The notes beneath the pieces were generated by a model that saw only the letters and a list, made by a program, of their open reading frames with translations, had not been told where the DNA came from and did no database searches. The translations under genes were made by a program, and so were the position numbers. Of a stretch of 64,000 nucleotides of DNA, positions 3,517 through 11,699 are shown in pieces. Within the stretch, counting starts at the first letter, position 1. Each line of letters opens with the position of its first letter. Source of the DNA: an uncultured Erysipelotrichaceae bacterium (GTDB taxonomy: Bacteria > Bacillota_I > Bacilli_A > Erysipelotrichales > Erysipelotrichaceae); assembly GCA_949744505.1 (NCBI GenBank), contig CATJXY010000018.1, forward strand, positions 1,165 to 65,164, in the 5' to 3' direction.

Positions 3517-4623
3517 TTATTTTGATCTAATTACATAAAATCCTTTAAGAATTTCACCCTCTAAATCAGGGTGGTTGTTTTCATCGTACACCCATAAAGC
3601 ACTGATTGGATCATGAGTCTTGTTATATTCTGCAATAAATTCTAAACCTTTTTCTGCCCCCATGATCATAAGCGCAGTAGATAAGATATCACCAACTCCG
3701 CCATCATTGCAAGTAATCGCAACAGAACGAACATCTTTAGCAGGATAATAAGTAGTCGGATCGATAATATGATGATAAATTTCTTGATCTTCTCCTACAT
3801 AATAGCGCTGATAATCTCCGCTTGTTACAATGGTAGATGTGTTAAATGTTTCAAGTATGGTAATTCCGTTTTGATCGCTGGCATCTTCCGGATTTCTGAC
3901 ACCGACTTTCCATGAAGAACCATCAGGCTTACTATGAATAAGCTGAATGTTACTTTCGCCAACGCTAAGTAAAATGGCATAAGGGTAGATTTCCTCTAAA
4001 TAGTCACTGATTTTTTGAGCAGCGAAACCTTTTGCGATACCCCCTACATCAATTGAGATGTTTGGATCGTCAATATAAACAGTCGATGCCTTTTCATCGA
4101 TAATAATATGCTCAAAGCCACGATACTGTGCGGCATTTTCAAGTTCTTCTTGGGTTGGTACTGCTCCTAATTGACCCCCATAATTTTTTAGTAAGCCTTC
4201 TTCTCGATATTCGTGCCAAATATTTAGTAGATTACCGATTGTAATGTCAAATGAGCCATCACTCATTTCTGAATATTCTTTTGCTAATAACAATAATTCG
4301 ATTAATTCTTGATCTACTTCAACAGGATTTATTCCGGCATTGTCATTAATTGTTTTAACATTATTTATATTTTCATAATTGTTATATTTATCAAATAAAA
4401 TTGTATAGTATTTCATTTTTTCACATACTTTTTCAAATAACTCATCTGCCTGACTTTTATCTTCTGCATAAGTTTGCATGACAACCGCTGTATCAAAATA
4501 CTCAGACCCATAAGTTTGATTTGTATATCGAGTCAAGTCTTTTGGTTGATCTAAAGAGGATGGGGGATTTATGGTACATCCTCCACACATAACACATAAT
4601 AAAAATATGATTAACTTTTTCAT
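3517..4623 (-). CDS. apbE: FAD:protein FMN transferase (ApbE/Ftp), lipoprotein
   Basis: Lipobox LLCVMCGGC after MKKLIIF, and an ApbE-type core (DVGGIAKGFAA, TSGDYQRYY). It is divergent from the rnf operon, whose subunits need covalent FMN. Confidence 0.85.
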   Translation of the reverse strand: MKKLIIFLLCVMCGGCTINPPSSLDQPKDLTRYTNQTYGSEYFDTAVVMQTYAEDKSQADELFEKVCEKMKYYTILFDKYNNYENINNVKTINDNAGINPVEVDQELIELLLLAKEYSEMSDGSFDITIGNLLNIWHEYREEGLLKNYGGQLGAVPTQEELENAAQYRGFEHIIIDEKASTVYIDDPNISIDVGGIAKGFAAQKISDYLEEIYPYAILLSVGESNIQLIHSKPDGSSWKVGVRNPEDASDQNGITILETFNTSTIVTSGDYQRYYVGEDQEIYHHIIDPTTYYPAKDVRSVAITCNDGGVGDILSTALMIMGAEKGLEFIAEYNKTHDPISALWVYDENNHPDLEGEILKGFYVIRSK

Positions 4624-4886: not shown

Positions 4887-6179
4887 ATGTCATTATTAAC
4901 AGGACCGATGCGCAAGCATGTTAACGGTCATAAAGAATTGACAGATCATGTCGATGTTAAAAAAATCGATGCCGGAAATTTGGTTTATATTCCTTTGGTA
5001 AATGGTAATGCGGTTGCAGGTGAAGTACTTGTCAACGAAGGCGATAAAGTTAAAGTAGGTACTGTTGTTGCCAGACGTAAGGATAATTTTATTGTTCCTT
5101 TATTTTCATCTGTTTCCGGTACTGTTAAGGGAAAAGAAACTTTCATGCATGCTGGATTAAAGCCGGTAGAGCATTTGGTTATCGAAAACGATGGTTTATA
5201 TGAAACGGAGCAAGCTTTTGAACCGATTGATTATACAACCGCAACAAGAGAAGAATTATGCGATTATATGATGAATGCTGGAATTGTAGGTTGTGGTGGA
5301 GCCGGATTCCCGAGCTATGTAAAGTATAAATTTGCTAAAGATGTTAAACTCTTGATTATCAATGCAGTAGAGTGTGAACCGTATATTACTGCTGATTACA
5401 AGTATGTTTCAGAGTACAAAGAAGATATGCTTCGTGGTGTTAAGGCAATGTTGAAGATGTGTGAAGCACCGGAGGCCGTTATTTGTATTAAAGAAACAAA
5501 AAAGGCATTCATTGAAGAAATGAATCAGTTCTTAAAAGATGAAAAAAATGTTAATGTCAAAGAAGTTCCGGATGTTTATCCAATGGGATGGGAAAGAACA
5601 TTGGTTTATGAAGTTACAAAGAAAAGATATGACCGTCTTCCGGGAGAAGTAGGTGTTGTTGTAAATAATGCAACAACAGCAATTGCTTTTGGTCAAGCAC
5701 TTGTAACAGGTAGAGGAATCACAGAAAAGTTTGTCACAGTTTCCGGTGATGCTATTAAGGAACCATGTACTGTTCGTGTTCCGGTAGGTGTAAGAACTTG
5801 TGATATTATTGCTGCATGCGGAGGATATACAAAAGAAGATGTTCTTTTGATTGCCGGAGGACCGATGATGGGAAGAACTATTCCTAATGATCAGTTTGTT
5901 ATCACTCCGTACAGTAATGCATTGACAGTTTTGGAAAATGTCCCGGTAAAAGAAGTTGCTTGTCTTCGCTGTGGACGTTGTTCAGATCACTGTCCGGCAG
6001 GATTACAACCGGTTCGTATTAACAATGCTGAAAAAGCAAAGAATATGGAATTGATTGAAAAATTGAACGTTATGGATTGTATTGAATGTGGTATGTGTAC
6101 ATATATTTGTCCTTCAAAGATTGCCGTAACGGAAGGTGTAAGAAGAGCAAAACGTGCTATGGCTCTTAAAAAGAAATAG
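4887..6179 (+). CDS. rnfC: Rnf electron transport complex subunit C
   Basis: GCGGAGFPS nucleotide-binding motif and two 4Fe-4S motifs (CLRCGRCSDHCP, CIECGMCTYICP). It is the first gene of an rnfCDGEAB-order cluster. Confidence 0.92.
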   Translation: MSLLTGPMRKHVNGHKELTDHVDVKKIDAGNLVYIPLVNGNAVAGEVLVNEGDKVKVGTVVARRKDNFIVPLFSSVSGTVKGKETFMHAGLKPVEHLVIENDGLYETEQAFEPIDYTTATREELCDYMMNAGIVGCGGAGFPSYVKYKFAKDVKLLIINAVECEPYITADYKYVSEYKEDMLRGVKAMLKMCEAPEAVICIKETKKAFIEEMNQFLKDEKNVNVKEVPDVYPMGWERTLVYEVTKKRYDRLPGEVGVVVNNATTAIAFGQALVTGRGITEKFVTVSGDAIKEPCTVRVPVGVRTCDIIAACGGYTKEDVLLIAGGPMMGRTIPNDQFVITPYSNALTVLENVPVKEVACLRCGRCSDHCPAGLQPVRINNAEKAKNMELIEKLNVMDCIECGMCTYICPSKIAVTEGVRRAKRAMALKKK

Positions 6180-6196
6180 GAAAGGGGAGAATTGAG

Positions 6197-7630
6197 ATGA
6201 AATTTACTTTTAAACCATCCCCAAACTATCGTAATGAGCAAAGTACAAGCTCTATTATGATGGAATTAACGATTGGGTTGTTAGTTATCTTTGCAGCAGG
6301 TTGTTTGATTAATTTGAAAATTAACGGAACAACTGCGTTGCTTCATTGTATTTTTGCTTTATTGGTTTGTCTTATTGCAACAGTAGGAACAGAAATTATT
6401 TGGTGTGTTGTATTAAAAAAAGACGTTGTAGAGCATTTATTTAGTTCATATCCATGGGTGACCGGAATTATTATTGCTTTGACAGTTCGTCCGAATGTAA
6501 GCTATTTTGCTTTAGCAGTTGCTTCTGTAATGGCAATTTATTTCGGTAAATTGGTTTTTGGTGGATTTGGACAAAATATTTTTAATCCTGCTGGCGTAGG
6601 TCGTGCAATTATTGCAATCAGTTTCGGTTCAGCGGTTGTCGCAGATGTCGTTTCTGGAGCAACTCCAACATCAACAATTTCAAGTTATGGATGGTTGATG
6701 AATGGTGCTAATGCTTCTGCATTCTTAAATGATTTCGGTGGTTTAACAAATATGGCACTTGGTTTATATCAAGGTGCTATTGGTGAAACATGTTCTGTTT
6801 TGCTTATTGTTGTTGGAATCGTTTTGGCATGGCGTAAGGTTATTGATTGGAAAGTTCCTACAATTTATGTATCTACAGTTTTTGTTCTTTCTTTGTTAGT
6901 AGGTTTGATGAATGGACAAGGATTGTGGTATCCGTTGTTTAGTGTTTTGACAGGTGGTGTTTTATTCGGGGCTGTCTTTATGTTGACTGATCCGGTTACA
7001 AATCCAACCAGTTCTTCAGGACGTGTCATTTTTGCGATGGGAGCAGGTTTATTAACCGTTCTTATTCGTGTAAAGGCAAGTTTGCCTGAGGGTGTATTAT
7101 TCTCAATTCTGTTGATGAATATGTTGACACCGGCTATCGAAAAATGGTGTGATGGAAATCAGATCAAAAATATTAAAAAGCTTCAAAGAAACGTAGTTAT
7201 TACAGCAATTATTTGTTTGGTTGTGGGAGCAATTGCCGGATTCTCTATGAAAGCATCTGATGCAAATTATGTAAATGTCAATACAAAGATTATTGTTGAT
7301 GCAAGCTATGGTGAAAATGCGTTGGCAAATGTAGATACATCTAACGTCAAGGTAATCAGCGAAGAAAATGGAACTTTCACTCTTGCAAGCAAGGGATTTG
7401 ATGGTGAAAATGAATTTAAGATTACTGTAGAAAATGGTGCAATTACAAGTTTTGAAGTAACAGCATTCAATGATACTCCGGGTATCGGTGATGCCATTAC
7501 ACAAGAAAGTTTTACAAGTAAGTTCAATGGGGCAACATTAGGATCTGAAATTGATGTTTGTGCCGGAGCAACGTATTCAAGTAATTCAGCTTTAGCTGCC
7601 GCAAGTGCTGCTTTAGCATCAGGTAACTAG
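6197..7630 (+). CDS. rnfD: Rnf subunit D fused to an extra TM helix and a C-terminal FMN-binding (RnfG-like) domain
   Basis: The NqrB/RnfD core carries the flavinylation motif SGATPTS (6653-6673). After ...LTPAIEKW comes the TM helix NVVITAIICLVVGAIAGF, then a roughly 115-aa module ending DVCAGATYSS (7553-7582). Total length is 477 aa. Confidence 0.88.
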   Translation: MKFTFKPSPNYRNEQSTSSIMMELTIGLLVIFAAGCLINLKINGTTALLHCIFALLVCLIATVGTEIIWCVVLKKDVVEHLFSSYPWVTGIIIALTVRPNVSYFALAVASVMAIYFGKLVFGGFGQNIFNPAGVGRAIIAISFGSAVVADVVSGATPTSTISSYGWLMNGANASAFLNDFGGLTNMALGLYQGAIGETCSVLLIVVGIVLAWRKVIDWKVPTIYVSTVFVLSLLVGLMNGQGLWYPLFSVLTGGVLFGAVFMLTDPVTNPTSSSGRVIFAMGAGLLTVLIRVKASLPEGVLFSILLMNMLTPAIEKWCDGNQIKNIKKLQRNVVITAIICLVVGAIAGFSMKASDANYVNVNTKIIVDASYGENALANVDTSNVKVISEENGTFTLASKGFDGENEFKITVENGAITSFEVTAFNDTPGIGDAITQESFTSKFNGATLGSEIDVCAGATYSSNSALAAASAALASGN

Positions 7631-7640
7631 GAGGAAAGAT

Positions 7641-8930
7641 ATGAATAAAATAGTTAAATTAGCAATTTTCCTCGGTATAGTTTCTGCAATTGCCGGTGGA
7701 GCTTTGGCAGCTGTTAATAATGTGACAGCTCCAATTATTGAAAAGAAAAAAGCTGCTGCAAGTCAGGGTGCTTTATTGGAAATCTTCCCAGATGCAACTT
7801 TTACAGAAGTTGAATTTAAGGATGAATCAGGGATCATTTTAGCTGTTCATCGTGCTGAGAATAAAGGGTATATATTCGAAATGAAGAATGCCGGATATAA
7901 TACCGGATCGCCACTTGAATTTATGCTTGGTATTGATGACAATGGCAATTATGTCGGTTATAAAGTTATTGTAAATGAAGAGACAAATGGGTTAGGATCA
8001 CGAGTTTCTGATGATGAATTTAAAAATACAATTGTTGGAAAAACAATTGATGATGAAATTGATACATTGTCAGGCGCTACATTATCAAGTCGCGCAATTA
8101 TAAACGGAATCAATGCTGCTAAAACAGTTTACGGTGATTTGGCAGGGGTTGAAGTAGAAGTGAAAGAACCAGAAGTAAAAGTAGCTCAGATTAGTTTATC
8201 TGAGGATTATTCAAGTAACAATGCTGTTGTTGAAAATTCAGAAGAAGTGGATGGAAATACAGTTTATACTGTTTCAGCAAAAGGATTTGAAGGTGTGAAT
8301 GTATTTGAAATCACAGTAAATGGTAATGGTGAAATTGTAAAAGTTGCCAATATAGAATTTAAGGATACTGTTGGAGTAGGTGATATTGCTATTGCTGAAG
8401 ATTACCTTGCTTCGTTTAACAATGCAACATTGGATTCTACATTGGATGCATGTGCAGGTGCTACTTATACAAGTAAATCCATAGCGGCTGCCGTTCAAGC
8501 TGTTTTAAGTGGTAATGGTGAAAGTGAACCTTTAGATGAAGAAGAAAATTCAAGTGAAGAGTCTTCTGAAGAGGAAACGCCAGTAGCAAATGAGGGGCCT
8601 AAGTTTGTTATTAATGATGACTATTCAGGTTGCAATGCAACGGTTGAAGGGTCTGAACAAACAGAAAATGGAACAGTTTACACAGTTTCTTCTTATGGAT
8701 TCCATGGAACAAGTATTTTCGAAGTAACTGTAAATGAAAATAAAGAAATTGTCAGTGTTGTTTGTACTGAATTCAATGATACAGAGGGTATTGGTGATTC
8801 TGCTACAACAGAAGATTATCTTGCTAAGTATGTAGGAGCTACAATGGAATCTTCTATTGATGTAAGCGCCGGAGCTACTTACACAGGTAAATCCGTAGCT
8901 GCTGCAGTACAGGCTGCATTGGAACAGTAG
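7641..8930 (+). CDS. rnfG: Rnf subunit G with three FMN-binding modules
   Basis: N-terminal TM anchor, a canonical RnfG domain with DTLSGATLSS (8061-8090), and two further modules with DACAGATYTS (8445-8474) and DVSAGATYTG (8859-8888). The last two modules are separated by an acidic Ser/Glu linker. Confidence 0.88.
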   Translation: MNKIVKLAIFLGIVSAIAGGALAAVNNVTAPIIEKKKAAASQGALLEIFPDATFTEVEFKDESGIILAVHRAENKGYIFEMKNAGYNTGSPLEFMLGIDDNGNYVGYKVIVNEETNGLGSRVSDDEFKNTIVGKTIDDEIDTLSGATLSSRAIINGINAAKTVYGDLAGVEVEVKEPEVKVAQISLSEDYSSNNAVVENSEEVDGNTVYTVSAKGFEGVNVFEITVNGNGEIVKVANIEFKDTVGVGDIAIAEDYLASFNNATLDSTLDACAGATYTSKSIAAAVQAVLSGNGESEPLDEEENSSEESSEEETPVANEGPKFVINDDYSGCNATVEGSEQTENGTVYTVSSYGFHGTSIFEVTVNENKEIVSVVCTEFNDTEGIGDSATTEDYLAKYVGATMESSIDVSAGATYTGKSVAAAVQAALEQ

Positions 8931-8943
8931 GAGGAATCTGAAG

Positions 8944-9594
8944 ATGAATAGAAAAGAAAACTTTTTTGCTGGATTTATAAGAGAAAATCCTGTATTTGGA
9001 TTGTATTTGGGACTTTGTTCAACTTTGGCAATTACAACGTCTTTGAATAATGCAATTGGTATGGGACTTAGTGTTATTGTTGTTTTGACTGCATCAAATA
9101 TTATTATTTCTGCAATCAGAAAAATTACACCGGATGAGATTCGTATCCCGGTTTATATCGTTGTTATTGCAACTTTAGTAAAGATTACCGGAATGTTGCT
9201 TCAAGCTTATTTTGATAGCATTTATTCTGCAATCGGTGTTTATATTGATTTGATTGTTGTTAATTGTATTATTTTGGGTCGTGCTGAAGCTTTTGCTTCA
9301 AAAAATGGAATTTTTGATTCTGCTTTAGATGGAATTGGAATGGGACTTGGGTATACTTTAGCTTTGATTGTTATGTCTGTAATCAGACAGATTTTAGGAT
9401 CAGGTATCTTGTCTTTTGCAAATCCAATGACAAATGAAATGATTTTCTCTTTGAGAATTATTCCTGAATCATTTACAATTTCAATGTTTACGACTCCGAC
9501 AGGCGGATTCTTGACATTCGCAGTTTTGGCTGCCGCCTTGACAGTTTACAAAAACTCAAAAGCTGCAAAATTGCAGAAAAAGGAGGCTAAATAA
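8944..9594 (+). CDS. rnfE: Rnf subunit E
   Basis: NqrD/RnfE-type polytopic protein (NPVFGLYLGLCSTLA..., NCIILGRAEAF) in the expected operon position. Confidence 0.9.
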   Translation: MNRKENFFAGFIRENPVFGLYLGLCSTLAITTSLNNAIGMGLSVIVVLTASNIIISAIRKITPDEIRIPVYIVVIATLVKITGMLLQAYFDSIYSAIGVYIDLIVVNCIILGRAEAFASKNGIFDSALDGIGMGLGYTLALIVMSVIRQILGSGILSFANPMTNEMIFSLRIIPESFTISMFTTPTGGFLTFAVLAAALTVYKNSKAAKLQKKEAK

Positions 9595-10172
9595 TGTTAG
9601 GAAATTTATTTTCGCTGTTTTTGACAGCATGTATCATTGATAACATCATTTTGTCAAAATTCTTTGGTATGTGTCCTTTCTTAGGAGTATCCAAGAAAGT
9701 CAGCTCTGCTGTAGGAATGGGTCTTGCTGTTATCTTTGTTATCGTTGGAGCTTCAATTCTAACTTATGGATTATATTATTTGGTTCTTGTACCACTTGAA
9801 TTAGAGTACATGGACTTGATTACATTCATTCTTGTTATTGCGGCATTTGTTCAATTTGTTGAAATGTTTATCAAGAAAAATTCTCCAAGTTTGTATAAAT
9901 CATTGGGAATCTATCTTCCTTTGATTACAACAAACTGTGCAGTTCTTTATGTAGCACAACAAAATATTGCGAACGGATATAATTTTGCTGAGATGCTTGT
10001 TTACTCAGTAGCGGTACCGGCAGGATTTACATTAACACTTTGCATTATGGCAACAATTCGTGAACGTTTGGAATTTGCAAATACACCAGAAAGTTATAAA
10101 GGAAATCCAATCACATTGGTTGTAGCTGCACTTATGGCTATTGCCTTTACGGGATTGGCTGGACTTGTATAA
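9594..10172 (+). CDS. rnfA: Rnf subunit A
   Basis: NqrE/RnfA-type protein (NIILSKFFGMCPFLGVS, ITTNCAVL). Its ATG overlaps the rnfE stop. Confidence 0.9.
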   Translation: MLGNLFSLFLTACIIDNIILSKFFGMCPFLGVSKKVSSAVGMGLAVIFVIVGASILTYGLYYLVLVPLELEYMDLITFILVIAAFVQFVEMFIKKNSPSLYKSLGIYLPLITTNCAVLYVAQQNIANGYNFAEMLVYSVAVPAGFTLTLCIMATIRERLEFANTPESYKGNPITLVVAALMAIAFTGLAGLV

Positions 10173-10173
10173 A

Positions 10174-10362
10174 ATGAAAGAATTAGCACCTTTTCTATAT
10201 ATAGTCGGTTTAGGTTGTTTATATGGAGTAGGATATTATTTGAACCATAAAACACCTGTGCCGAAAGGTTGCGAGAATTTAAAAGCGGATTGTGAAGGCT
10301 GCAAGATTACTTCTTGCGAGAATCATCCGATTTATGATTTATCTAAAGGAGAAAAAATATGA
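10174..10362 (+). CDS. small membrane protein with a Cys-rich tail, unassigned (candidate Rnf accessory subunit)
   Basis: The ATG is 1 nt after the rnfA stop, and the stop overlaps the rnfB ATG (ATGA). It has one TM helix (FLYIVGLGCLYGVGYYL) followed by CENLKADCEGCKITSC (CX6CX2CX4C). The longer ORF-track start at 10141 overlaps rnfA and was not used. Confidence 0.55.
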   Translation: MKELAPFLYIVGLGCLYGVGYYLNHKTPVPKGCENLKADCEGCKITSCENHPIYDLSKGEKI

Positions 10363-10634
10363 TTAATGCAATAATTATGATGTTAGTCGTCGGTGCACTT
10401 CTTGGAGCTGTGTTGGGAATTGCCGGTAAAGTGTTTTACGTTGAGGCAGATACACGTGTTGAAACAGTTACAGGAATGCTTCCTGGTTATAACTGTGGTG
10501 GTTGTGGTTTTGCCGGATGTTCAGGTATGGCAGAAGCTTTAGTTAATGGAGAGTCTACTGTCGATCAATGTAAACCTTCAAAACCTGAGGCTAAAGAAGC
10601 AATTAAACAGTTTTTGACTGAAAATGCTAAATAA
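10359..10634 (+). CDS. rnfB: minimal RnfB (TM anchor plus N-terminal Fe-S domain only; no ferredoxin-like domains)
   Basis: A TM helix followed by LPGYNCGGCGFAGCSGMAEAL...QCKP, the conserved RnfB N-terminal cluster motif. The ORF stops at 91 aa and a clean terminator follows. Confidence 0.8.
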   Translation: MINAIIMMLVVGALLGAVLGIAGKVFYVEADTRVETVTGMLPGYNCGGCGFAGCSGMAEALVNGESTVDQCKPSKPEAKEAIKQFLTENAK

Positions 10635-10663
10635 GAAAAACTCAAGTGTAAACTTGAGTTTTT
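10635..10663 (+). terminator. intrinsic terminator ending the rnf operon
   Basis: Stem CTCAAGT/ACTTGAG with loop GTAA, followed by TTTTTT. Confidence 0.8.
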
Positions 10664-10718: not shown

Positions 10719-11669
10719 ATGAGTAAAAGAAGAATTATTTTTGATTGTGATCCGGGTCATGATGATGTTGTTGCTATATTATTGGCTCTTGCCAGCGAAG
10801 AAATGGAGATAGTTGGAATTGTTACGAGTGCAGGAAATCAAACTATTGAAAAGACAACAACGAATACATTAAAACTTTTGAGTTATTTGAACATAACATC
10901 GATTCCTGTTGTAAAAGGATTGGGCAAGCCGTTATGTCAGCCACTTGTTTGTTCTCCGGAAGTTCATGGAGAAACTGGTTTGGATGGAGCTGATCTAGGG
11001 GAAATCAAATTTAAGCCTCTTGAAAAGAATCCGATCGAATTTATGTATCAAACAATTATGTGTTCTGAAGAAAAAACAACATTGATTGTTACCGGTCCTA
11101 TGACGAATACGGCTGCTTTGTTGATTGCTCATCCGGATGTGAAAGAAAAAATTGATTGTATTTCTTTTATGGGAGGAGCTTGTTTTGGTGGTAATACAAC
11201 ACCGCTTTCTGAGTTTAATATCTATGTAGATCCTGAAGCTGCAAAGATTGTATTTAAAAGTGGAGTTGATTTATTCATGAGTGGCTTAGATGTCACAATG
11301 AAAGCTCGTCTTTTAAAAAAGGATATTAATGCGATCCGTGCTTTAAATAATGGGATTGGACCAATCTTAGCTGATTTGTTGGATTTCTTTAATCTTTCAA
11401 CAACAGTTAATTTCTTAAATGATGATCCAAATTATGAAGAGGGAGTCCATATGCATGATCCTTGTGCAGTAGCACTGTTACTTCACCCGGAAAAATTTGT
11501 CACAAGAAAACTATATGGTGATGTTGAAACAAGTGGGGAATACAGTCGAGGTTGCACAGTAATTGATTATGATGGAATATATGGCCGTGAAAAAAACGTG
11601 ACAGTAGCATTTGATTTAGATCGTGAATGGTTTGCTCAATATGTTATTGATTCAGTGGGAAAACTATAA
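10719..11669 (+). CDS. ribonucleoside hydrolase (IUNH family)
   Basis: N-terminal DCDPGHDD aspartate cluster typical of inosine-uridine-preferring nucleoside hydrolases. Length is 316 aa. Confidence 0.85.
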   Translation: MSKRRIIFDCDPGHDDVVAILLALASEEMEIVGIVTSAGNQTIEKTTTNTLKLLSYLNITSIPVVKGLGKPLCQPLVCSPEVHGETGLDGADLGEIKFKPLEKNPIEFMYQTIMCSEEKTTLIVTGPMTNTAALLIAHPDVKEKIDCISFMGGACFGGNTTPLSEFNIYVDPEAAKIVFKSGVDLFMSGLDVTMKARLLKKDINAIRALNNGIGPILADLLDFFNLSTTVNFLNDDPNYEEGVHMHDPCAVALLLHPEKFVTRKLYGDVETSGEYSRGCTVIDYDGIYGREKNVTVAFDLDREWFAQYVIDSVGKL

Positions 11670-11699
11670 AAGATGCGTTGTTTGATCAACGCATCTTTT
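11669..11699. terminator. hairpin between convergent genes; overlaps the rqcH 3' end
   Basis: Stem AGATGCGTTG/CAACGCATCT followed by TTTTC on the + strand. Confidence 0.6.

What the first reader, a model, noticed from the sequence alone, without database searches (positions are those of the whole stretch)
10359..10634. RnfB reduced to a membrane anchor plus a single Fe-S domain
The 91-aa product keeps the N-terminal TM helix and the conserved motif LPGYNCGGCGFAGCSGMAEAL...QCKP. It lacks any CxxCxxCxxxCP ferredoxin-type motif. It ends at a stop codon that is followed within 1-30 nt by a strong terminator. The next 84 nt up to the following gene cannot encode the missing domains, so this is not a recent frameshift remnant. 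In characterised Rnf complexes the missing domains relay electrons to and from ferredoxin.
Basis: partly seen in the sequence, partly recalled or inferred. Interest (0 to 1): 0.65.

Follow-up and report, generated by a model that had tools for sequence, protein, structure and literature searches.

The report
Minimal RnfB plus small cysteine protein
The 91-residue RnfB is a real, conserved "minimal" electron-input subunit of the Rnf membrane complex, of a kind already shown to work in Thermotoga maritima; the part not yet described is a tiny cysteine-rich membrane protein always encoded just in front of it in this bacterial family.

Summary
Window 10359-10634 (+) encodes a 91-aa RnfB made of one membrane helix and one PF04060 [4Fe-4S] domain (C46, C49, C54, C71). 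It has no ferredoxin-type motif and ends 1 nt before a strong terminator.

It is not a remnant. All 38 Erysipelotrichaceae/Bacillota genomes with a close homologue recovered here have an 89-106 aa RnfB with no ferredoxin motif, in the same apbE/rnfCDGEA-x-B operon.

The retained piece matches the mobile "FdI/B8" domain, which in solved Rnf structures hands the electron to the membrane [2Fe-2S] cluster of RnfA/E. The Cys ligands of that cluster are intact here.

T. maritima RnfB is 10.56 kDa with one predicted cluster, and its purified Rnf shows ferredoxin:NAD+ activity and pumps Na+ (PMC7414866). The short RnfB is therefore a new member of a known kind.

Two points seem undescribed:
- Short RnfBs carry a basic C-[KR]-P-x-K signature after the fourth Cys, whereas long forms have C-P-V-G-G.
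- A 62-aa single-helix protein with four invariant Cys (10174-10362) overlaps the rnfB start. It is present in 36 of 38 short-RnfB loci and in 0 of 42 long-RnfB loci.

The short RnfB occurs with and without the FMN-module expansions. Interest is modest.

The parts
10359..10634 (+). rnfB, minimal form (91 aa, 9.4 kDa). It has a TM helix (about residues 2-25), a linker, and an FdI/B8-type [4Fe-4S] domain with C46, C49, C54 and C71. It also carries the short-form signature Y44 and C71-K-P-S-K-P..K79.
   Evidence: aligns to residues 1-87 of the RnfB chains 7zc6_B, 9eri_B and 8ahx_B. (AF2 model, pLDDT 92.5). (Foldseek: 9eri_B, and the CoFeSP N-terminal 4Fe-4S domain at rmsd 1.1-1.5 A)..
10346..10351 (+). 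Shine-Dalgarno AAGGAG, 7 nt upstream of the rnfB ATG and inside the end of the small ORF.
   Evidence: Read directly from the sequence.
10174..10362 (+). Conserved 62-aa single-pass membrane protein with a Cys4 tail (KTPxPxG-C33-E-x5-C40-x2-C43-x4-C48). Its start is 1 nt after the rnfA stop, and its stop overlaps the rnfB start (ATGA).
   Evidence: Alignments A1 and A3 show invariant N24, T27, P28, P30, G32, C33, E34, C40, C43 and C48. It is present in 36 of 38 short-RnfB loci and 0 of 42 long-RnfB loci. It has 496 homologue clusters; where a source names them they are 'hypothetical protein', apart from one UniRef 'FeoB-asso...' label. Reciprocal context was confirmed. No Pfam or NCBIfam family was found.
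10636..10663 (+). Intrinsic terminator hairpin followed by a T run, ending the rnf operon.
   Evidence: (-15.9 kcal/mol, z -5.7).
9594..10172 (+). rnfA. Both Cys ligands of the intramembrane [2Fe-2S] cluster are conserved (GMC27P and TTNC115AV, equivalent to A. woodii C25 and C113).
   Evidence: the ligand identities come from PMC11889175.
8944..9594 (+). rnfE. Both Cys ligands of the [2Fe-2S] cluster are conserved (C25 and C108).
7641..8930 (+). rnfG with three FMN_bind domains (multi-flavinylated RnfG).
   Evidence: (PF04205, 3 stretches). This class is described in PMC8238504.
6197..7630 (+). rnfD with an extra C-terminal FMN_bind domain (residues 400-473).
4887..6179 (+). rnfC (NADH/FMN module with two ferredoxin-type 4Fe-4S motifs). 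It is the only ORF with such motifs in the window.
3517..4623 (-). apbE flavin transferase (a lipoprotein-like N-terminus by eye), transcribed divergently from the rnf operon.
   Evidence: It holds the same position in most related loci.

Best explanation
The gene encodes a functional minimal RnfB. It has one transmembrane helix tethering a single mobile [4Fe-4S] domain, called FdI in C. tetanomorphum and B8 in A. woodii. In solved Rnf complexes this domain is the last cytoplasmic carrier: it swings onto RnfA/E and reduces the intramembrane [2Fe-2S] cluster. From there the electron goes to the flavins of RnfG and RnfD and then to RnfC/NAD+.

The polyferredoxin 'antenna' of long RnfBs is absent by design in this lineage. 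The soluble low-potential donor (ferredoxin, possibly flavodoxin) must therefore reduce this cluster directly, as in T. maritima Rnf.

Shown here: domain content, fold, Cys ligands, operon membership, lineage-wide conservation, and intact RnfA/E ligands.

Inferred: cluster occupancy, direct docking of ferredoxin (possibly on the short-form-specific basic K72/K75/K79 patch), and the direction of electron flow.

The conserved Cys4 mini-protein encoded between rnfA and rnfB is most likely an accessory of this module. It could be an extra metal- or Fe-S-bearing subunit beside RnfB, or an NqrM-like maturation factor.
For: - Domain and ligands: PF04060 at E 1.1e-14, and alignment to residues ~1-87 of three solved RnfB chains with all four Cys matched.
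- Fold: the AF2 model (pLDDT 92.5) matches 9eri_B and the CoFeSP [4Fe-4S] domain.
- Role of the domain: Vitt 2022 and Kumar 2025 identify FdI/B8 (residues 30-100) as the mobile terminal cluster that reduces AE1. The 2025 review says the same.
- Downstream path intact: the RnfA/E Cys ligands are conserved.
- Not a remnant: 38 of 38 related loci have 89-106 aa forms with no ferredoxin motif. There are 22 invariant columns in a 42-sequence alignment. The gene has its own SD, a terminator directly after the stop, and the exact protein occurs on 22 contigs.
- Functional precedent: T. maritima RnfB, 10.56 kDa with one cluster, in a complex with Fd:NAD+ activity and Na+ transport.
- Distinct subfamily: short forms have C-[KR]-P-x-K against C-P-V-G-G in long forms, and a net charge of +1.7 against -0.95 over residues 72-86.
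- Accessory gene: 36 of 38 short loci against 0 of 42 long loci, an ATGA overlap with rnfB, and four invariant Cys.
Against: - There is no biochemical data for any Erysipelotrichaceae Rnf, so ferredoxin dependence rests on analogy with T. maritima.
- I could not retrieve the T. maritima RnfB sequence, so whether it belongs to the same C-[KR]-P subfamily is untested.
- Kuhns et al. themselves note that the one-cluster count in T. maritima RnfB 'remains to be established'.
- Only 64 kb of this genome was visible, so a polyferredoxin, ferredoxin or flavodoxin partner encoded elsewhere cannot be excluded.
- The function of the small protein is unsupported by any homology, and its Cys-rich tail models poorly (pLDDT 50-68).
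Confidence: 0.8

Rival explanations
1. The missing electron-input function is supplied in trans. A separately encoded protein docks on the minimal RnfB and provides the ferredoxin-binding or relay site. Candidates are the adjacent Cys4 mini-protein acting as a seventh, redox-active subunit, or a polyferredoxin encoded elsewhere.
For: The Cys4 protein is translationally coupled to rnfB and has four invariant Cys placed ~7-22 residues after a TM helix, on the side predicted to be cytoplasmic (more basic residues, by eye). It is found only in short-RnfB operons.
Against: Short RnfBs in other Bacillota (L083, L084/L021) lack any such gene, and rnfA abuts rnfB there. The T. maritima operon is given as rnfCDGEAB. 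No ferredoxin-motif ORF other than RnfC lies within +-8 kb in 37 of 38 loci or anywhere in the window. The Cys4 spacing (x6, x2, x4) matches no known Fe-S family.
Confidence: 0.3
2. The Rnf of this lineage has been re-purposed. NADH enters at RnfC and electrons leave through RnfD, RnfG and the extra FMN modules to extracytosolic acceptors. The RnfB/RnfAE branch would then be vestigial, regulatory, or fed by a donor other than ferredoxin.
For: RnfD and RnfG carry extra FMN_bind domains in the window and in about two thirds of related loci. Meheust et al. propose a second, outward path for multi-flavinylated RNF.
Against: The short RnfB and the Cys4 protein are equally conserved in 11 loci with canonical-size RnfD/G. 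The RnfB cluster ligands, the RnfA/E ligands and the short-form signature are under strong conservation, which argues against a vestigial branch. An outward branch does not exclude the ferredoxin branch.
Confidence: 0.15
3. The short ORF is a recent truncation, a pseudogene, or an assembly or frameshift artefact of a normal long rnfB.
For: None beyond the shortness itself.
Against: - The same length class occurs in 38 genomes at 51-91% identity.
- The exact sequence is on 22 contigs.
- A terminator sits 1 nt after the stop, and the next gene follows 84 nt later.
- No ferredoxin-motif coding potential was found in any frame of the window outside rnfC.
- The retained domain shows subfamily-specific substitutions.
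Confidence: 0.02

Closest known systems
Thermotoga maritima RnfB (10.56 kDa), part of the purified Na+-translocating ferredoxin:NAD+ oxidoreductase (Kuhns et al. 2020, PMC7414866)
   Same: It is about 10 kDa, has one predicted [4Fe-4S] site and no ferredoxin-type domains, and is the last gene of an rnfCDGEAB-type operon. Vitt et al. describe it as 'only the FdI domain'.
   Different: It comes from a different phylum. The T. maritima operon has no extra gene between rnfA and rnfB. The T. maritima complex has biochemical proof of function and this one has none.
FdI / B8 domain of long RnfBs (C. tetanomorphum 7ZC6_B residues 40-90; A. woodii 9ERI_B residues 30-100; A. vinelandii 8AHX_B)
   Same: It has the same TM anchor, CX2CX4CX16C site and fold (39% identity to 9eri_B over 90 columns), and the same presumed role as the mobile donor to the RnfA/E [2Fe-2S] cluster.
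   Different: In long forms the domain is followed by 2-7 more [4Fe-4S] clusters fixed on RnfC. After the fourth Cys, long forms read C-P-V-G-G and have A44, whereas the short forms read C-[KR]-P-x-K and have Y44.
N-terminal [4Fe-4S] domain of the corrinoid iron-sulfur protein large subunit (2YCL_A, 4DJD_C)
   Same: It shares the Pfam family (PF04060), the Cys spacing and the fold (rmsd 1.1-1.5 A over 52 residues).
   Different: It is soluble, fused to a TIM-barrel and corrinoid module, and is not part of a membrane redox pump.
NqrF of Na+-NQR
   Same: By functional analogy, it also has a single TM helix and a flexible small Fe-S domain that delivers electrons to the NqrD/E (equivalent to RnfA/E) [2Fe-2S] cluster.
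   Different: It is unrelated in sequence, has a [2Fe-2S] ferredoxin domain plus an FAD/NADH module, and takes electrons from NADH.
NqrM (DUF539), the small membrane Fe-S maturation protein of Na+-NQR (compared with the 62-aa Cys4 protein)
   Same: [quoted passage not shown] It is encoded in the operon of an RNF/NQR-type pump whose membrane [2Fe-2S] cluster needs insertion.
   Different: No detectable sequence similarity: there was no hit to the Pfam NqrM model even at E <= 10. nqrM lies after nqrF/apbE, whereas here the gene lies between rnfA and rnfB.
FeoB-associated Cys-rich membrane protein (PF12669) (compared with the 62-aa protein)
   Same: It is a tiny single-TM protein with a Cys-rich tail. 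There were weak hits for 4 of 17 family members (best E 0.0018), and one UniRef entry carries a 'FeoB-asso...' name.
   Different: The window's own protein gives no hit. The genomic context is rnf rather than feoB. The invariant KTPxPxGCE motif is specific to this family.

Membership tests
RnfB (RnfABCDGE electron transport complex subunit B; TIGR01944 / PF04060 N-terminal part) | N-terminal transmembrane anchor helix | tested here: met
   Hydrophobic residues 2-25. AF2 models helix 2-25 with pLDDT >90. The region aligns to the TM helix of 7zc6_B, 9eri_B and 8ahx_B.
RnfB (RnfABCDGE electron transport complex subunit B; TIGR01944 / PF04060 N-terminal part) | PF04060 Fe-S domain with CX2CX4CX16C ligands | tested here: met
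   PF04060 at E 1.1e-14 and 54.3 bits against a cut-off of 23. C46, C49, C54 and C71 align to the Cys of solved RnfBs and are invariant in 42 homologues.
RnfB (RnfABCDGE electron transport complex subunit B; TIGR01944 / PF04060 N-terminal part) | C-terminal ferredoxin-type 2x[4Fe-4S] domain(s) | tested here: not met
   No C..C..C...C motif is present. The NCBIfam RnfB models are matched only over positions ~3-89, and the equivalog models fall far below cut-off (for example 73.8 against 252 bits).
RnfB (RnfABCDGE electron transport complex subunit B; TIGR01944 / PF04060 N-terminal part) | Curated family score threshold | tested here: met
   The TIGR01944 subfamily model scores 68.9 bits against a cut-off of 68.7, so it only just passes. 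Public records name homologues 'RnfABCDGE type electron transport complex subunit B' or '(Fe-S)-binding protein'.
RnfB (RnfABCDGE electron transport complex subunit B; TIGR01944 / PF04060 N-terminal part) | Encoded in an rnf operon with rnfC, D, G, E and A | tested here: met
   rnfC-D-G-E-A-x-B lie at 4887-10634 on one strand. The same order is seen in 30+ related loci.
RnfB (RnfABCDGE electron transport complex subunit B; TIGR01944 / PF04060 N-terminal part) | Accepts electrons from reduced ferredoxin and passes them to RnfA/E | not testable with these tools
   This needs enzyme assays. Only the precedent of T. maritima and the intact RnfA/E ligands bear on it.
Minimal (single-cluster) RnfB of the T. 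maritima type | About 10 kDa, with one predicted [4Fe-4S] and no further Fe-S motifs | tested here: met
   91 aa and 9.4 kDa, with a single Cys4 site. The T. maritima values come from PMC7414866.
Minimal (single-cluster) RnfB of the T. maritima type | Sequence relatedness to T. maritima RnfB beyond the shared PF04060 domain | not tested
Minimal (single-cluster) RnfB of the T. maritima type | Complex shows Fd:NAD+ oxidoreductase activity and Na+ transport | not testable with these tools
   This is a biochemical property.
NqrM / DUF539 (for the 62-aa protein at 10174-10362) | Match to the Pfam NqrM model | tested here: not met
   No NqrM hit for any of 17 family members at E <= 10. HMMER filters may hide very weak matches.
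NqrM / DUF539 (for the 62-aa protein at 10174-10362) | Single TM helix plus conserved Cys, encoded in the pump operon | tested here: met
   AF2 models a confident helix at 4-26. C33, C40, C43 and C48 are invariant. The gene lies between rnfA and rnfB. This is a functional resemblance only. That single TM helix plus conserved Cys defines NqrM is my own recollection, because the NqrM paper could not be read.
FeoB-associated Cys-rich membrane protein (PF12669) (for the 62-aa protein) | Match to PF12669 above threshold | tested here: inconclusive
   4 of 17 members hit weakly (best E 0.0018). The window's own protein does not hit at all.

The most novel reading that the evidence does not exclude
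The Erysipelotrichaceae Rnf is a seven-gene variant. The conserved 62-aa Cys4 single-pass protein would be a stoichiometric, metal- or Fe-S-bearing subunit sitting beside the minimal RnfB at the cytoplasmic mouth of RnfA/E. There it would replace the lost polyferredoxin as the docking or entry site for the soluble donor. Alternatively, it would be the first NqrM-like insertion factor known for the [2Fe-2S] cluster of an Rnf. The C-[KR]-P-x-K short RnfBs would then define a separate, widespread input-module type across Bacillota.
Probability: 0.3. Interest if true: 0.6.

Novelty: new variant of a known kind. Interest (0 to 1): 0.33.

Why it matters
Rnf links the ferredoxin and NADH pools to an ion gradient in many anaerobes, and Erysipelotrichaceae are abundant gut bacteria. 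The data show that a whole family, plus other Bacillota lineages, runs Rnf with only the terminal [4Fe-4S] shuttle domain. This supports the view that the polyferredoxin part of RnfB is a dispensable, lineage-specific antenna, and that TM helix plus FdI/B8 is the minimal input module.

The short RnfB itself adds little beyond the T. maritima precedent. The conserved Cys4 mini-protein and the basic short-form signature are concrete, cheap targets. They bear on two open questions: how ferredoxin docks on a minimal RnfB, and how the membrane [2Fe-2S] cluster of Rnf is inserted. Both can be tested in cultivable species such as [Clostridium] innocuum and Holdemania filiformis.

Tried and rejected
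- Frameshift or pseudogene remnant: rejected on conservation, the terminator and the exact-sequence recurrence.
- A ferredoxin or polyferredoxin partner nearby: none in the window other than RnfC, and none within +-8 kb in 37 of 38 related loci. The flanking genes are housekeeping.
- Coupling of the short RnfB to the FMN-module expansions: rejected. 11 loci with a canonical RnfD+G span (547-563 aa) and about 21 expanded loci (630-1005 aa) all have the short RnfB.
- Family assignment of the 62-aa protein: Pfam and NCBIfam gave nothing, apart from weak PF12669 hits for 4 of 17 members.
- AF2 model of the 62-aa protein: the helix is confident but the Cys tail is poor, so no fold search was run on it.
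- Literature: no paper in the library holds both 'RnfB' and 'Erysipelotrichaceae', and the broader search found nothing on the Rnf of this family. The NqrM paper (PMC4751810) is not held.
- Taxon names for other short-RnfB clusters: the cluster look-up returned one name in ten, so contexts were read from contigs instead.
- The T. maritima RnfB sequence could not be retrieved, so no direct alignment was made.
- The third large protein search was left unused, because it was unlikely to surface Thermotoga among the top 120 hits.

Full report
**Observation**

- It matches Pfam PF04060 ('Putative Fe-S cluster') at residues 41-73 (E 1.1e-14).
- It matches only the N-terminal ~86 positions of every NCBIfam RnfB model. 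The TIGR01944 subfamily model is just passed (68.9 against 68.7 bits), and the full-length equivalog models are far from passed.
- The cysteines are C46-x2-C49-x4-C54-x16-C71.
- No ferredoxin-type C..C..C...C motif is present. In the entire 64-kb window (33% G+C) the only ORF with such motifs is RnfC.
- The stop codon (10632-10634) is followed after 1 nt by a hairpin at 10636-10663 plus a T run. It folds at -15.9 kcal/mol, z = -5.7.
- The next gene, a nucleoside hydrolase, starts at 10719.

**Context**

The gene closes an operon: rnfC (4887-6179), rnfD with an added C-terminal FMN_bind domain (6197-7630), rnfG with three FMN_bind domains (7641-8930), rnfE (8944-9594), rnfA (9594-10172), a 62-aa ORF (10174-10362) and rnfB. 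A divergent apbE flavin transferase lies at 3517-4623. The flanking genes are housekeeping.

**Not a remnant, but a lineage-wide form**

A scan of one genome per species returned 80 loci. I re-derived the RnfB ORF in each.
- 38 loci, all but two labelled Erysipelotrichaceae or unclassified Bacillota/Firmicutes, have an RnfB of 89-106 aa with no ferredoxin motif; one (L048) is cut by the contig end at 73 aa and was grouped with them. They include Holdemania filiformis, H. massiliensis, Copranaerobaculum intestinale, Absicoccus porci, Faecalitalea cylindroides and Solobacterium.
- The other 42 loci are mostly Oscillospiraceae and Prevotella. The 40 typical complete ones have 264-339 aa forms with 3-4 motifs; one (L075) is cut by the contig end at 165 aa, and one Calditrichaceae MAG (L035) has a 697-aa form.
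- The gene order apbE/rnfCDGEA-x-B is shared by the short loci whose contig is long enough to show it.
- The best 120 of 469 database clusters found with the query are all 83-106 aa. A 42-sequence alignment has 22 invariant columns.
- The exact window protein occurs on 22 metagenome contigs.
- An exhaustive HMMER search of 1.84 billion representatives found 2,773 relatives. The best 150 include dozens of further short clusters.
- Contexts read for three of these clusters show rnfCDGEAB operons in other Bacillota with 102-110 aa RnfBs (L083, L084). One locus (L081) has cydAB-rnfDGEA-x-rnfB and no rnfC.

**What the retained piece is**

The protein aligns to residues ~1-87 of the RnfB chains in all three solved Rnf complexes (7ZC6, 9ERI, 8AHX), with the four Cys matched. 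An AlphaFold2 model (pLDDT 92.5) retrieves 9eri_B. It also retrieves the N-terminal [4Fe-4S] domain of the corrinoid iron-sulfur protein at rmsd 1.1-1.5 A.

The structural papers describe this segment as follows:
- TM helix 1-29 plus 'FdI' 40-90 in C. tetanomorphum (PMC9588780).
- 'B8 domain', residues 30-100, in A. woodii (PMC11889175).
- It is the highly mobile, terminal cytoplasmic cluster that docks between RnfA and RnfE and reduces the intramembrane [2Fe-2S] cluster.
- The Cys ligands of B8 were among the cofactor sites mutated in A. woodii to validate this electron pathway.
- The 2025 review gives the same picture (PMC12174285).

The four Cys ligands of that membrane cluster are conserved in the window's RnfA (C27, C115) and RnfE (C25, C108). 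The window therefore keeps the functionally indispensable part of RnfB and its acceptor. It lacks only the variable polyferredoxin 'antenna'.

**Comparison with what is known**

Kuhns et al. (PMC7414866) report that T. maritima RnfB is only 10.56 kDa, with room for one predicted 4Fe-4S centre. Its operon is rnfCDGEAB. The purified complex accepts electrons from C. pasteurianum ferredoxin, reduces NAD+ and transports Na+. [quoted passage not shown]

The short RnfB is thus a new member of a known kind, and its most likely mechanism is direct reduction of the single cluster by the soluble donor. That step is inferred, not shown, for this lineage.

**The suggested link with the FMN expansions**

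The combined RnfD+RnfG span is canonical (547-563 aa) in 11 short-RnfB loci and expanded (630-1005 aa) in about 21. The short RnfB is present in both groups. Multi-flavinylated RnfG is already described and is proposed to add an outward electron path (PMC8238504). It is a separate feature.

**What appears to be new**

First, short RnfBs are not simply truncated long ones.
- Position 44 is Y in 35 of 36 short forms and A in 38 of 39 long forms.
- After the fourth Cys, short forms read C-K-P-[SC]-K-P-[DE]-x-[KR], while long forms read C-P-V-G-G.
- Among 150 library representatives, the C-[KR]-P class is 33 of 35 at <=125 aa and is never >200 aa.
- The segment 72-86 has net charge +1.7 in short forms against -0.95 in long forms.
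- This is compatible with a docking patch for acidic ferredoxins. That reading is inference.

Second, there is the 62-aa ORF at 10174-10362.
- It starts 1 nt after the rnfA stop and ends in an ATGA overlap with the rnfB start.
- It encodes a confident TM helix (residues 4-26) followed by an invariant motif, N24, T27, P28, P30, G32, C33, E34, C40, C43 and C48, seen across 48 sequences down to ~38% identity.
- A profile search of all six frames finds it directly upstream of rnfB in 36 of 38 short-RnfB loci and in 0 of 42 long-RnfB loci. Of the two exceptions, one has no rnfA-rnfB gap and one is masked.
- Starting instead from the small protein, [Clostridium] innocuum and a Catenisphaera-like contig show the same arrangement.
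- 496 clusters exist; where a source gives a name it is 'hypothetical protein', apart from one UniRef 'FeoB-asso...' label.
- There is no Pfam or NCBIfam family. Only weak PF12669 hits occur for 4 of 17 members, and there is no NqrM hit.
- Its role is unknown. I rank an accessory metal/Fe-S subunit beside RnfB and an NqrM-like [2Fe-2S] insertion factor (compare) as the two leading readings.
- It is not required for minimal RnfBs in general, since L083, L084 and T. maritima lack it.

**Verdict**

The feature is real and under selection, but its headline property is already documented and shown to be compatible with ferredoxin-dependent Na+ pumping. I found no separately encoded ferredoxin-domain partner in the neighbourhood.

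Interest is modest at 0.33. It rests mainly on the undescribed Cys4 partner gene and the short-form signature. Both are testable in cultivable gut species.

Noticed in passing
window 10174-10362 (+): A conserved 62-aa single-TM protein with four invariant Cys (C-x6-C-x2-C-x4-C) is wedged between rnfA and rnfB, and its stop overlaps the rnfB start. It is specific to short-RnfB operons of Erysipelotrichaceae. It is unannotated ('hypothetical') in the public records that name it and belongs to no Pfam or NCBIfam family.
   Followed up: yes
window 6197-7630 and 7641-8930 (+): RnfD carries an extra C-terminal FMN_bind domain. RnfG has three FMN_bind domains, each with an SGAT-type flavinylation motif, separated by an acidic Ser/Glu-rich linker. 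This is a multi-flavinylated Rnf, a class noted by Meheust et al. 2021. Related genomes range from canonical to even larger expansions.
   Followed up: partly
RnfB position 44 and 71-79 (window 10488-10490 and 10569-10595): Short RnfBs have Y44 and C-[KR]-P-x-K-P..[KR], where long RnfBs have A44 and C-P-V-G-G. This creates a local basic patch next to the cluster. The signature also holds in short RnfBs of unrelated Bacillota lineages.
   Followed up: partly
L007-L012, L014-L020, L022, L024, L027, L029, L033, L034, L037, L038 (RnfB C-termini): Many Erysipelotrichaceae RnfBs (100-106 aa) end in a conserved extra tail, TPGPDGxTIxVK. The window's 91-aa lineage lacks it. Its function is unknown.
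   Followed up: no
L081 2829-8285 (GCA_947313815.1): This locus has cydA-cydB followed directly by rnfD-rnfG-rnfE-rnfA, a 50-aa TM ORF with C-x2-C-x6-C, and a 94-aa rnfB. There is no rnfC within 16 kb, and a PFOR gene lies 6 kb downstream. It may be an Rnf-like module feeding a cytochrome bd oxidase.
   Followed up: no
L035 8001-10094 (Calditrichaceae MAG): A 697-aa ORF begins with an RnfB-like N-terminus (49% identity to the query) and is far longer than any characterised RnfB.
   Followed up: no
window 11668-11699: A perfect 13-bp-stem hairpin sits between the convergent nucleoside hydrolase gene (+) and the NFACT/RqcH-like gene (-). It looks like a shared bidirectional terminator.
   Followed up: no
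window 3517-4623 (-): An ApbE flavin transferase with a lipoprotein-type N-terminus (…LLCVMCGGC…, my reading of the sequence) is transcribed divergently from rnfC. It holds this position in nearly all related loci.
   Followed up: partly
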